Part shown: piece by piece, positions 21,800-24,700 of the stretch
Layout: the number at the start of each line of letters is the position of its first letter
Numbering within the stretch: the stretch's first letter is position 1
Program-made: the position numbers
Source of the DNA: Anolis carolinensis
Lineage: Eukaryota
Assembly (NCBI RefSeq): GCF_035594765.1
Contig: NC_085842.1
Location: forward strand, 17,398,782 to 17,462,781
Direction of reading: 5' to 3'
Length of the DNA: 64,000 nt

Positions 21800-24700
21800 T
21801 TATTATTATTATTATTATTATTATATTAATACTAAGTGGGAATAACCTTATCTCCCTGTTTGAATGGATTAAATTTGCCTAATTAATTTTCAGCCACAAT
21901 ATTCCAAGCTCACAACTAACCAGATTCTTTCCTTTAGACCTGTGTAAACAGACTAAGAGCAAAATCATTCTGTTAATATCATAACATACAGAAGAGATTG
22001 AGAATTCTAAACAAGCCTTTTCTTCAGGTTAAACTAGATTTTCACCTACATATTTTAAGAAACACCATATTTTTTTTTACATTTAATACACACACAAACA
22101 CATCACTTATTGGATTTATTATTATTTATATGTTATAGATAGGACATGAAACATTTGCAGAAACCATTATGCATGAACAGATAGAAAACAGTTTATCAGT
22201 GATTCTTTCTTAGTTATTTCATACAAGAAAATTCAGTCCCACATACATATAACTACATGAAACACAGGGCTGTTAGTCATTAATTAAACCCATTCCCACA
22301 CTTCAAATCAAACATCTCAATTAAATGTATTTTAAACCCTGAATATACATGACAGGAAATATTTGCAGTAACTAATGTTCATGAATGGGTAAAAGAAAAC
22401 CTGAAATATCTTTCGTTTAGCTCTCAAAATATTATCACTTTTGCTTAATGAGATATTTCATCAAAGAAAATTGGTCAGATTATTACTTCCCCCAAAAGCC
22501 ACAGCTTTTTAAATCAGTGTTACCATAACTAAGATGCAAGCCACCTTTGATTTAAAACAAAGAAACTTCTCTTTACCCCATTTCTTTCGTATGGGTTGAC
22601 AATTAAAAACAAGGCTTGTCTTTCAACTGCAGATCTTTGCACACTCCAGTTTTTCTCCACTGCGAGTTGCTTGATGTTAAACAAGGTATGATTTTCGACT
22701 GAAGCTCTTTCCACACTCTGAGCATTTAAATGGCTTCTCTCCTGTGTGAGTTGCCTAATGACTAATAAGTCTTCAATTTTGGTTAAAGCTCTTTTCATAC
22801 TGAAAGCATTTTAAAAGTTTCTCTCCTGTGTGAGTTGCCTGATGACTAATAAGGACGTCCTTTCGACTGAAGCTCTTTTGACACACTGAGCATTTAAATG
22901 GCTTCTCTCCTGTGTGAGTTGCCTGATGACGAATAAGGACTTGCTTGTGACTGAAGCTCTTTTGACACACTGAGCATTTAAATGGCTTCTCTCCTGTATG
23001 AGTGGCCTGATGATTATGAAGTGTTCCCTTCTGACTGAAGCTCTTTTCACACTGCAAGCATTTAAATGGCTTTTCTCCTGTGTGAATTGCCTGATGTTTA
23101 ATAAGTGTTCCCTTTTGACTGAAGCTCTTTTCACACTGCAGACATTCAAATGGCTTCTCTCCTTTGTGAGTTGCCTGATGATGGATAAGGTCTTGCTTGT
23201 GCCTAAAGCACTTTTCACACTGCAAGCATTTAAATGGCTTCTCTCCTGAGTGAGTTGCCTGATGAGAAATAAAGGTTCCCTTTCGACTGAAGAACTTTCC
23301 ACACTGCAAGCAATGAAATGGCTTTAATCCCGTGTGAGTTGCCTGATGACTAATAAGGCTTCCCTTTTGGCTAAAGCTCTTTTCACACTGCACACATTTA
23401 AATGGCTTCTCTCCTGTGTGAGTTGCCTGATGACTAATAAGGACGTGTTTTTGACTGAAGCTCTTTTCACACAGCAAGCATTTAAATGGCTTCACTCCTG
23501 TGTGAGTTGCTTGATGACGAATAAGGACGTGCTTGCGACTGAAGCCCTTTTTACACTGCAAGCATTTAAATGGTTTCTGTTCTGTGTGAGTTGCCTGATG
23601 ACTAATAAGGTTACTCTTTTGAGTGAAACACTTTTCACACACTAAGCATTTAAATGGCTTCACTCCTGTGTGAGTTGCCTGATGACTAATAAAGGTGCTT
23701 TTGTGACTGAAGCTCTTCTCACACTGCAAGCAATGAAATGGCTTCACTCCTGTGTGAGTTTCCTGATGACGAATAAGGATGTACTTGTGACTAAAGCACT
23801 TTTCACACTGCAAGCATTTAAATGGCTTTACTCCTGTGTGAGTTGCCTGATGAGCAATAAGGTTTCCCTTTTGGCAAAAGCTCTTTTCACACTGTACACA
23901 TTTAAATGGCTTCTCTCCTGTGTGAGTTGCCTGATGACGAATAAGGCTTCTCTTTTGACTGAAGCTCTTTTCACACTGCAAGCATTTAAATGGCTTCTCT
24001 CCTGTGTGAGTTGCCTGATGACTAATAAGGATGTGTTTGCGACTAAAGCTCTTTTCACACTGCAAGCATTTATATGGCTTTACTCCTGTGTGAGTTGCCT
24101 GATGAGCAATAAGGTTTCCCTTTTGACAAAAGCTCTTTTCACACTGTACGCATTTAAATGGCTTCTCTCCTGTGTGAGTTGCCAGATGACTAATAAGGTT
24201 TCTTTTATGACTAAACCTCTTTCCATAGTGCGAGCATTTAAATAGCTTCTCTCCTTTGTGAATTGCCCTGTGATGAACATAGCTTATCTTCTGAGAGAAA
24301 CTTTTTCCACATTCCAAAGATTTAAATGGTTCATCCCTTCTGTGAGTTTCTTGAGAAAAGGTGAGCGCTTCCTTACTATTGAAATCCATTCCATTTTCCA
24401 AATATTTAAACGGTGTCTCCTCTATTGGCATGGCTTGAGAACAAGGGAAGGGTGAACATGTGTTGAAAAGAAAAGGTTATATTAAAGTTAAAATGTATAC
24501 CAGTAACAAAAGTGCATTTAGTCGCAACAGCCCTTTCCCACAGCCCTATCCAACACTAGATGCTAAAAGAAAAATATCTGTTTTGTTATTGCTCTAAATA
24601 TTACACCAGGATATAAGTCTCAAAGTAAATTATAATGCAACCAGGGAAGTGGAAAATAGAGTTGTTTTCTTTAGCCCTGGTTTCTCTGGCATTCCCTGTA

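What the first reader, a model, noticed from the sequence alone, without database searches (positions are those of the whole stretch)
23086..23107. Recognition helix of a single finger swapped between otherwise identical duplicates B and D
Seen: the two 552-aa ZnF ORFs differ at only 4 residues. Three are in intact finger 13 (B: QKGTLIKHQAIH; D at 60352-60373: QKGNLIAHQATH) and come from 6 substitutions in 22 nt. The D tract matches fingers 1 and 4 of the same array (QKGNLIAHQATH) except at one synonymous base. Helix positions +3 and +6, both base-contacting, are changed. Inference: a short intra-array gene conversion reprogrammed DNA specificity right after duplication (or between alleles), a snapshot of KZFP target switching.
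Basis: partly seen in the sequence, partly recalled or inferred. Interest (0 to 1): 0.7.

Follow-up and report, generated by a model that had tools for sequence, protein, structure and literature searches.

The report
Helix swap between duplicated zinc-finger genes
Two almost identical copies of a lizard-type SCAN-KRAB zinc-finger gene differ mainly by a 22-base patch that gives one finger the DNA-reading helix of another finger, most likely through a short copy-paste (gene conversion) event of a kind already known in this gene family.

Summary
The two 552-codon zinc-finger ORFs (22773-24431 and 60039-61697, minus strand) differ at 7 nt, giving 4 residues. Six of the 7 lie in 23086-23107 / 60352-60373. 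The surrounding 4.2 kb has only one other difference, and the last 3,627 nt have none.

The D version matches fingers 1 and 4 (my units 3 and 6) at 5 of the 6 sites. The sixth site matches neither copy. The B version has no look-alike in the window. A three-sequence mosaic test gives p = 0.010. A GENECONV-style test on the 84-nt units alone is not significant.

Best reading (about 0.65): a short templated conversion of 22-45 nt into copy D from a unit-3/6-type finger. It changes helix positions +3, +6 and +10.

These are an intra-array donor, the timing "right after duplication" (flank divergence falls from 2-5% to 0%), and any change in DNA target.

The genes are SCAN-KRAB-C2H2, closest to Anolis paralogues (69-74% identity), not human. 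No outgroup or reads were available. This is a new example of a known process; interest is modest.

The parts
22773..24431 (-). Copy B: zinc-finger exon ORF, 552 codons. It has 18 in-register 84-nt units (units 1-2 degenerate, 3-18 intact) plus a degenerate C-terminal remnant.
60039..61697 (-). Copy D: zinc-finger exon ORF, 552 codons, 7 nt / 4 aa different from B.
23067..23150 (-). Its 33-nt core has no other match within 4 mismatches in the window.
60333..60416 (-). Unit 15 of D, helix QKGNLIAHQATH. It is a mosaic: B-like backbone with a unit-3/6-like core.
23086..23107 (-). Minimal differing tract in B (six substitutions, three codons).
60352..60373 (-). Minimal differing tract in D. It matches units 3/6 at 5 of 6 sites.
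60341..60385 (-). Maximal possible tract in D if unit 3 is the donor type (45 nt; 60341-60383 for unit 6). It is bounded by the nearest sites where D follows B and not the donor. The B equivalent is 23075-23119.
61341..61424 (-). Unit 3 of D, a candidate donor type (helix QKGNLIAHQATH). Its counterpart in B is 24075-24158.
61089..61172 (-). Unit 6 of D, a candidate donor type. It is 2 of 84 nt different from unit 3. Its counterpart in B is 23823-23906.
22983..23066 (-). Unit 16 of B (helix QKGTLHNHQATH). It is the only unit sharing B's states at 4 of the 6 sites and is probably the sister unit of unit 15.
22812..22812 (-). The only other coding difference between B and D (Leu in B, Phe in D at 60078), in the degenerate last finger.
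27451..27639 (-). Open segment holding the KRAB box of gene B.
   Evidence: PF01352, E 1.3e-18
28911..29597 (-). Open segment holding the SCAN domain of gene B.
   Evidence: PF02023, E 1.1e-35
13267..26734 (.). B copy of the segmental duplication. The right end is set by the window end of the D copy.
49782..64000 (.). D copy of the segmental duplication. It runs off the window, and it includes the D-specific 895-nt insertion at 50588-51482.
40561..41820 (-). Zinc-finger exon of the intervening paralogue C, about 78-81% identical to B and D. None of its 12 units carries either tract version.

Best explanation
B and D are paralogous copies of a SCAN-KRAB-C2H2 gene in a tandem cluster of a squamate (Anolis-like) genome. 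Their zinc-finger exon and upstream intron are almost identical. In copy D, a stretch of 22-45 nt inside the 15th 84-nt unit was overwritten by non-reciprocal, templated repair. This was a short non-allelic gene conversion or template switch during out-of-register pairing of the finger repeats. The template was a finger of the unit-3/6 type. The event replaced three codons at once and gave this finger the recognition helix of units 3 and 6: +3 Thr to Asn, +6 Lys to Ala, +10 Ile to Thr.

Shown: the clustered differences, the mosaic structure of D's unit, and the presence of a near-exact template type in the array.

Inferred: the direction (B ancestral, D recipient), the mechanism, and the identity of the donor (same array, the sister copy, or an unseen paralogue).

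Inferred from recalled knowledge of canonical C2H2 recognition, and not tested: the subsite read by this finger changes. Lys at +6 and Asn at +3 are classically strong base-specifying residues, for G and A respectively.
For: (1) Six of the 7 ORF differences lie in 22 nt. The chance bound is 1.7e-8 for 1,659 nt and 1.7e-10 for the 4,191-nt low-divergence zone.
(2) That zone (22544-26734) otherwise has 1 substitution where about 16 are expected at the rate of the middle part (P(<=1) = 1.7e-6). There are 0 differences in 23108-26734.
(3) 29 other units were examined (17 of B, 12 of C). Only units 3 and 6 match D's states at 5 of 6 sites, and the next best match 3.
(4) D's 33-nt core has four 1-mismatch matches in the window (units 3 and 6 of both copies). 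B's core has none within 4 mismatches.
(5) Mosaic structure. D15 against unit 3 has 1/45 mismatches inside columns 32-76 and 7/39 outside (Fisher p = 0.022). B15 against unit 3 has 6/45 and 7/39 (p = 0.76).
(6) In the three-sequence pattern, the 5 donor-like sites are contiguous among 12 informative sites, with chance 8/792 = 0.010.
(7) B15 shares its Thr codon and two further bases with its neighbour, unit 16. Unit 16 is also among its closest relatives outside the tract (4/39). This fits B keeping the older state.
(8) The array has a history of such events. Units 3 and 6 differ by 2/84 nt, while their neighbours 4/7 and 5/8 differ by 8 and 10.
(9) Short conversions among poly-ZF paralogues and within finger arrays are documented (PMC2604467 and PMC3890296, passages read).
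Against: (1) A Sawyer/GENECONV-style permutation on the 18 units alone is not significant for D15 with unit 3 or unit 6. p is 0.21 and 0.21 mismatch-free, and 0.15 and 0.24 mismatch-tolerant.
(2) The tract is not an exact copy. One of the 6 sites matches neither B nor units 3/6. At the local B/D divergence (1 substitution in about 4,170 nt outside the patch), a later hit inside 45 nt is expected about 0.01 times. So either the true donor is not in the window or the repair was error-prone.
(3) Perfect identity flanking and interrupting the tract is only 6-17 nt long (from the columns). That is short for classical homologous recombination.
(4) No outgroup was found. No protein above 74% identity appeared in three searches of 5.8 billion proteins, and 0 of 360 held relatives carry either 12-residue helix.
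(5) No reads were available, so an assembly artefact is not excluded.
(6) Other clusters of 3-4 substitutions occur elsewhere in the duplication.
Confidence: 0.65

Rival explanations
1. Reverse polarity. The common ancestor of B and D had the D-type helix at unit 15 (through older kinship or an older conversion with units 3/6), and B's unit 15 was overwritten from a paralogue outside the window.
For: No outgroup is available. Anolis carolinensis is reported to hold 240 SCAN-KRAB-ZNF models (PMC3971581, passages), so unseen donors are plentiful. D's states at 2 of the 6 sites (third base of the +6 codon, and the +10 codon) are the array's majority states.
Against: B's core has no match within 4 of 33 mismatches in the window. 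None of the 360 held relatives has B's helix. B15 is evenly diverged from unit 3 inside and outside the tract, whereas D15 is a mosaic. B15 shares 4 of the 6 states with its neighbour, unit 16. Under this rival that sharing would be a coincidence, or would need two separate 2-nt patches that skip the differing bases between them.
Confidence: 0.12
2. Artefact of assembly. Either the patch is a consensus or polishing error caused by reads of units 3/6 being placed on unit 15, or B and D are two haplotypes of one locus laid down as neighbours, in which case the difference would be allelic.
For: The array is repetitive: period 84, 18.8 copies, 82% matches. The copies are identical over 3.6 kb. No reads could be examined.
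Against: The tract is not identical to units 3/6, because one base is unique to D, and simple mis-placement of reads would not produce that. The copies have distinct surroundings. Paralogue C lies between them. D holds an 895-nt insertion flanked by a 9-nt direct repeat that B lacks. The alignment shows 8 indel events and a smooth divergence gradient up to 4.9%. The window has no N or gap.
Confidence: 0.12
3. Untemplated change. This would be either six independent point mutations fixed by positive selection on the helix, or one untemplated multi-nucleotide mutation.
For: All six changes fall in three codons and all three are non-synonymous. Positive selection at contact residues is well known in the family (PMC2604467 and PMC5363842, passages). 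Clusters of 3-4 substitutions occur elsewhere in the duplication.
Against: Six hits in 22 nt, with one other substitution in 4.2 kb, has a chance bound of 1.7e-10. Five of the six new bases reproduce an existing finger, including a full three-base codon (GCT) found only in units 3 and 6 among the 29 other units examined.
Confidence: 0.04

Closest known systems
Short gene conversions among paralogous poly-zinc-finger genes (Emerson & Thomas 2009, PMC2604467; passages read)
   Same: Both involve short non-reciprocal transfers between homologous finger-coding sequences in lineage-specific expansions of KRAB/SCAN poly-ZF genes, with diversification concentrated in the contact residues.
   Different: That study treated conversions as a nuisance to be removed, and looked between genes. 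Here a single event is isolated on a near-identical background. The donor type sits in a different finger position (out of register), and the host is a squamate rather than a mammal.
PRDM9 zinc-finger minisatellite turnover (PMC3890296; passages read)
   Same: Both are 84-nt finger repeats evolving by duplication, deletion and gene conversion, with variation concentrated at helix positions -1, 3 and 6.
   Different: The repeats here are only about 82% alike, so this is not a minisatellite-grade array. No SET domain was found in the open segments scanned (150 of 221 minus-strand and 146 of 249 plus-strand segments). The gene has SCAN and KRAB exons, so it is not PRDM9.
Rapid fingerprint divergence between young KZFP paralogues in mouse clusters (Kauzlaric et al. 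2017, PMC5363842; section 7 and passages read)
   Same: Both show tandem clusters, segmental duplication, and new zinc 'fingerprints' arising by rearrangement of finger-coding units between near-identical paralogues.
   Different: [quoted passage not shown] Here a sub-finger patch of 22-45 nt is replaced without any change in finger number.
Lizard SCAN-KRAB-ZNF expansion (Liu et al. 2014, PMC3971581; passages read)
   Same: The domain order is the same: SCAN, KRAB, C2H2 array. The closest proteins are Anolis paralogues. The KRAB box lacks the central Leu of the MLE cluster, as that paper reports for the lizard consensus.
   Different: No protein above 74% identity was found, so the exact genes are not among the proteins searched. 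That paper's supplementary gene lists could not be seen.

Membership tests
Krueppel-type C2H2 poly-zinc-finger protein | Tandem C-x2-C-x12-H-x3-H units of 28 residues joined by TGEKP-like linkers | tested here: met
   PF00096 E 5.4e-75 and PF13465 E 6e-125. There are 18 in-register units, 16 of them intact. TRF gives period 84 and 18.8 copies.
KRAB zinc-finger protein (KZFP) | KRAB box encoded upstream of the finger exon on the same strand | tested here: met
   For gene B: PF01352 in 27451-27639(-), E 1.3e-18. For gene D the expected place lies beyond base 64000, so it is not testable in this window.
KRAB zinc-finger protein (KZFP) | KRAB able to recruit KAP1/TRIM28 (intact MLE cluster) | tested here: inconclusive
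   The window's KRAB reads ...IMEENLG, so the central Leu is absent. PMC3971581 (passages) says KAP1 binding by lizard KRAB cannot be assumed.
SCAN-KRAB-ZNF subfamily | SCAN domain exon upstream of KRAB and the fingers | tested here: met
   PF02023 in 28911-29597(-), E 1.1e-35. The same order is seen in genes A and C.
Non-allelic (ectopic or intra-array) gene conversion | A cluster of differences between otherwise identical sequences, bounded by identity | tested here: met
   Six substitutions in 22 nt. There are 0 differences in the next 3,627 nt, and the nearest on the other side is 274 nt away.
Non-allelic (ectopic or intra-array) gene conversion | A donor whose sequence equals the converted tract | tested here: inconclusive
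   Units 3 and 6 match 44 (unit 3) and 43 (unit 6) of 45 nt, and 5 of the 6 changed sites. One base matches no unit in the window. Donors outside the window could not be searched.
Non-allelic (ectopic or intra-array) gene conversion | Statistically supported mosaic (recombinant) structure | tested here: inconclusive
   The three-sequence contiguity test gives p = 0.010 and the Fisher inside/outside test gives p = 0.022. The Sawyer-type permutation on the units alone gives p = 0.15-0.24.
Non-allelic (ectopic or intra-array) gene conversion | Polarity fixed by an outgroup, and both versions confirmed in reads | not testable with these tools
   No protein above 74% identity.
PRDM9-type finger minisatellite | PR/SET domain, and near-identical finger repeats that differ mainly at contact residues | tested here: not met
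   No SET match among the open segments scanned. Repeats are 82% alike, and units differ by 2-31 of 84 nt.

The most novel reading that the evidence does not exclude
B and D may be an older pair (flanks 2-5% diverged) whose gene bodies are kept identical by ongoing interlocus homogenisation. On this reading the 22-nt helix patch is not the newest event. It is an island that has survived homogenisation because selection keeps the two paralogues reading different DNA. That would be a specificity-changing helix swap protected against concerted evolution.
Probability: 0.1. Interest if true: 0.6.

Novelty: new member of a known kind. Interest (0 to 1): 0.35.

Why it matters
Poly-zinc-finger repressors are thought to gain new DNA targets soon after duplication. 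Most documented cases are old, and the events behind them are blurred by later change. Here a single sub-finger event is isolated on a background with almost no other differences, so its size (22-45 nt), its template type and its effect on the helix can be read directly. It comes from a squamate SCAN-KRAB-ZNF cluster, a lineage-specific expansion that is much less studied than mammalian KZFPs. If both versions are real and expressed, the pair would allow a clean natural comparison of what one helix swap in a 16-finger array does to binding. The mechanism itself is not new.

Tried and rejected
(1) Outgroup or second sighting. Three searches of the finger exon against 5.8 billion proteins were run: near lengths, longer, and shorter with region 386-511. 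The best identities were 74% (P0118, unnamed), 69% and 68% (Anolis sagrei), and 69% (A. carolinensis P0249). None is an orthologue. A string scan of all 360 listed proteins found 0 with either 12-residue helix. The one protein with the FECLQC start of unit 15 (P0249) carries a different helix.

(2) GENECONV-style tests on the units alone were not significant.

(3) Paralogue C as an internal outgroup was rejected. Its array aligns to B in several registers at similar identity, and none of its 12 units carries either version.

(4) CpG decay as the cause of the divergence gradient was rejected. 18 of the 45 substitutions in the most diverged 2-kb bin are in CpG context, but CpG counts are the same in that bin and the next (56 and 56).

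(5) PRDM9 identity was rejected. There is no SET domain, and SCAN and KRAB are present.

(6) Naming the D-specific 895-nt insertion failed. There was no Pfam match even at E <= 5, no PDB match, and no likeness to the window's reverse-transcriptase ORF.

The phage, plasmid and E. coli collections are irrelevant.

(9) No motif predictor for zinc fingers was available, so the predicted change in target rests on recalled recognition rules.
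Full report
**What is there**

The window has no N. On the minus strand it carries a tandem cluster of SCAN-KRAB-C2H2 genes.
- Gene A: SCAN 2076-2597, KRAB 428-640. Its fingers lie beyond base 1.
- Gene B: SCAN 28911-29597, KRAB 27451-27639, finger exon ORF 22773-24431.
- An extra SCAN exon at 31047-31550.
- Gene C: SCAN 49078-49659, KRAB 44933-45145, finger ORF 40561-41820.
- Gene D: only the finger ORF 60039-61697 and part of the upstream intron are inside the window.

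For Pfam I scanned 150 of the 221 minus-strand open segments of at least 55 aa. I scanned 146 of the 249 plus-strand segments. Segments of the D copy, antisense-of-finger segments and 21 minus-strand segments at 45527-51324 were left out; of these last, only the C SCAN segment was scanned, separately.

Exons were examined one at a time.

**Origin**

The finger exon of B was searched against 5.8 billion proteins. It found 3,804 proteins at E <= 1e-50 among the 8,000 candidates scored. The most identical are lizard paralogues:
- P0118, unnamed, 74% over 53% of the query;
- Anolis sagrei P0003 (69%) and P0028 (68%);
- A. carolinensis P0249, 69% on residues 386-511.

P0118's SCAN and KRAB parts are 88-92% identical to gene B's exons. 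I therefore take the contig for a squamate close to Anolis, not for human.

Liu et al. 2014 (PMC3971581, passages) report 240 SCAN-KRAB-ZNF models in A. carolinensis. They also report that the lizard KRAB consensus lacks the central Leu of the MLE cluster. The window's KRAB reads ...IMEENLG, in agreement.

**The observation**

B and D lie in a segmental duplication. The main block, B 14246-26734 against D 51483-64000, has 76 substitutions and 8 indel events in 12,534 columns. The duplication continues further left:
- 13627-14254 against 49960-50587, 12 mismatches in 628;
- 13267-13449 against 49782-49964, 9 mismatches in 183.

It is interrupted in D by an 895-nt insertion (50588-51482) flanked by a 9-nt direct repeat.

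Inside the 1,659-nt ORF there are 7 substitutions. One is at 22812/60078. Six are at 23086-23107 / 60352-60373. They give 4 amino-acid differences, and three of these are in one finger. I number 84-nt units from the first, degenerate, finger.

**More than chance**

- The upper bound on the chance that 6 of 7 differences fall within 22 nt is 1.7e-8 for the ORF. It is 1.7e-10 for the 4,191-nt zone 22544-26734.
- That zone holds one other substitution, where about 16 are expected at the rate of the middle part of the duplication (P(<=1) = 1.7e-6).
- From 23108 to 26734 the copies are identical.
- Caveat: three clusters of 3-4 substitutions within 25 nt exist elsewhere in the duplication. Complex small events do happen in this pair, and a uniform model overstates the significance.

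**Template and direction**

- At the six sites, units 3 and 6 match D at five. The sixth is the third base of the Asn codon. It is A in B, T in D and C in units 3/6.
- Among the 29 other units examined (17 of B, 12 of C), the next best match to D is 3 of 6. The GCT codon at +6 occurs only in units 3 and 6.
- D's 33-nt core has four 1-mismatch matches in the window (units 3 and 6 of both copies). B's core has no match within 4 mismatches.
- D15 is a mosaic relative to unit 3: 1 mismatch in columns 32-76 (45 nt) and 7 in the other 39 columns (Fisher p = 0.022). B15 is evenly diverged: 6/45 and 7/39, p = 0.76.
- With B15 and unit 3 (or 6) as parents, D15 reads PPPPPP-Q-x-QQQQ-P over the informative sites. 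Five contiguous donor-like sites out of 12 has chance 0.010.
- B15 shares four of the six states with its neighbour, unit 16, which is also among its nearest relatives outside the tract. A conversion from unit 16 cannot explain B15, because the differing bases between those sites were not transferred. The sharing fits common descent of units 15 and 16, with B keeping the older state.
- The minimal tract is 22 nt. The maximal tract is 45 nt (60341-60385) for a unit-3 donor and 43 nt for a unit-6 donor.

**Evidence against, or missing**

I implemented it as a Sawyer-type permutation over the 18 units. It gave p = 0.21 for both pairs mismatch-free, and 0.15 and 0.24 mismatch-tolerant. The units are short, and the odd base breaks the run.
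- That odd base matters. At the local divergence, a fresh substitution inside 45 nt is expected only about 0.01 times. So the true donor may be a unit-3/6-like finger elsewhere (another paralogue or allele), or the repair synthesis was inaccurate.
- Units 3 and 6 of B and D are identical over the tract, so even an in-window donor need not be 'intra-array'.
- No orthologue or second sighting of either version was found.
- No eukaryotic contig collection or reads were available. Polarity and the reality of the assembly therefore stay unchecked.

**Timing**

Divergence between the copies falls steadily from left to right:
- 4.9% and 1.9% left of the insertion;
- 21.9 per kb in the first 2 kb of the main block;
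- 4.8, 4.8 and 2.0 per kb in the next three bins;
- then the patch plus one substitution;
- then 0.

CpG content does not explain the step: 56 CpG in each of the first two bins. The simplest reading is an older duplication whose gene-proximal part was homogenised recently, by long conversion or unequal exchange. 'Right after duplication' is therefore not supported as stated. The patch is either younger than the last homogenisation or an island that escaped it. The window cannot tell these apart.

**Mechanism proposed**

Finger arrays pair out of register. Shifted self-alignments of the array are 81-85% identical, and units differ by 2-31 of 84 nt. A break or stalled synthesis in unit 15 of D was repaired using a unit-3/6-type finger as template. 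The exchange points lay in the short identical blocks that flank the helix codons. This is inferred, not shown.

Precedent from the literature:
- GENECONV detected short conversions among poly-ZF paralogues in many species (PMC2604467, passages).
- Finger arrays of PRDM9 evolve by duplication, deletion and conversion, with variation at -1, 3 and 6 (PMC3890296, passages).
- Mouse KZFP clusters show fast emergence of new fingerprints among near-identical paralogues (PMC5363842, section 7).

**Consequence**

Take the first zinc-binding His as +7 (the canonical numbering, recalled from the Zif268 literature). The changes are then at +3 (Thr to Asn), +6 (Lys to Ala) and +10 (Ile to Thr). Positions -1, 3 and 6 are the specificity positions cited in the papers read. 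From recalled recognition rules, Lys at +6 favours G and Asn at +3 favours A. The subsite would then shift from G-x-A-like to x-A-A-like. This is untested. It concerns one of 16 intact fingers, and long arrays often use only some of their fingers.

Calling the proteins KZFPs is right by domain content for B. For D it is unverifiable in the window, and it is open with respect to KAP1 recruitment.

**Virus-like content (description only)**

The window holds decayed non-LTR retrotransposon pieces.
- A 477-codon open segment with RVT_1 lies at 45537-46967(+). Its best solved relatives are LINE-1 ORF2p and R2 proteins.
- Relics similar to it lie within 9716-11129(-), 18892-19517(-), 32753-35773(-), 45537-49048(+) and 56126-56751(-). 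Each is spread over 2-3 reading frames in 2-6 pieces.
- An endonuclease-type segment lies at 15274-16008(+). It is open in B, and its D counterpart (within 52510-53251) is split over two frames.

**Verdict**

A short templated conversion into copy D is the best explanation (about 0.65). It is a clean new instance of a known process in a little-studied lineage. It is not a new kind of system.

Noticed in passing
13267-26734 against 49782-64000: Divergence between the two copies of the segmental duplication falls steadily from 4.9% and about 2% at the left end to 0 over the last 3.6 kb. This suggests recent homogenisation of the gene-proximal part rather than a single recent duplication.
   Followed up: partly
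50588-51482: An 895-nt insertion is present only in the D copy, flanked by a 9-nt direct repeat (50579-50587 and 51483-51491; single copy in B at 14246-14254). It carries most of a 288-codon open frame (50536-51399) that has no Pfam or PDB match. Its last 156 nt resemble 11784-11932(-) at 83%.
   Followed up: partly
31047-31550 (-): An extra SCAN-domain exon (E 1.3e-34) lies upstream of gene B's own SCAN exon, and no KRAB match lies between them. Predicted Anolis sagrei proteins P0003 and P0028 show two SCAN-KRAB modules before the fingers, so double-SCAN models or read-through may occur in this family.
   Followed up: no
5745-6056 (-): A short relic of a different finger array (3.7 copies of an 84-nt unit, 75% matches; C2H2 match in 5807-5995) lies between genes A and B.
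   Followed up: no
23823-23906 and 24075-24158 (also 61089-61172 and 61341-61424): Units 3 and 6 differ by only 2 of 84 nt, while their neighbours 4/7 and 5/8 differ by 8 and 10. This points to an earlier whole-unit homogenisation inside the same array. Gene C's array shows a 252-nt (three-finger) periodicity.
   Followed up: partly
27451-27639 (-): The KRAB box of gene B reads ...IMEENLG. It lacks the central Leu of the mammalian MLE cluster, as reported for the lizard consensus (PMC3971581 passages).
   Followed up: partly
9716-11129(-), 18892-19517(-), 32753-35773(-), 45537-49048(+), 56126-56751(-); 15274-16008(+) and 52510-53251(+): These are decayed non-LTR (LINE-type) retrotransposon pieces. 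The reverse-transcriptase relics are each spread over 2-3 frames. An endonuclease-type segment is open in the B copy and split over two frames in the D copy.
   Followed up: partly
left two-thirds of the duplicated block: Three further clusters of 3-4 substitutions within 25 nt separate the two copies. One of them sits beside two indels in a G-rich stretch. Small complex mutations therefore occur in this pair apart from the finger patch.
   Followed up: no
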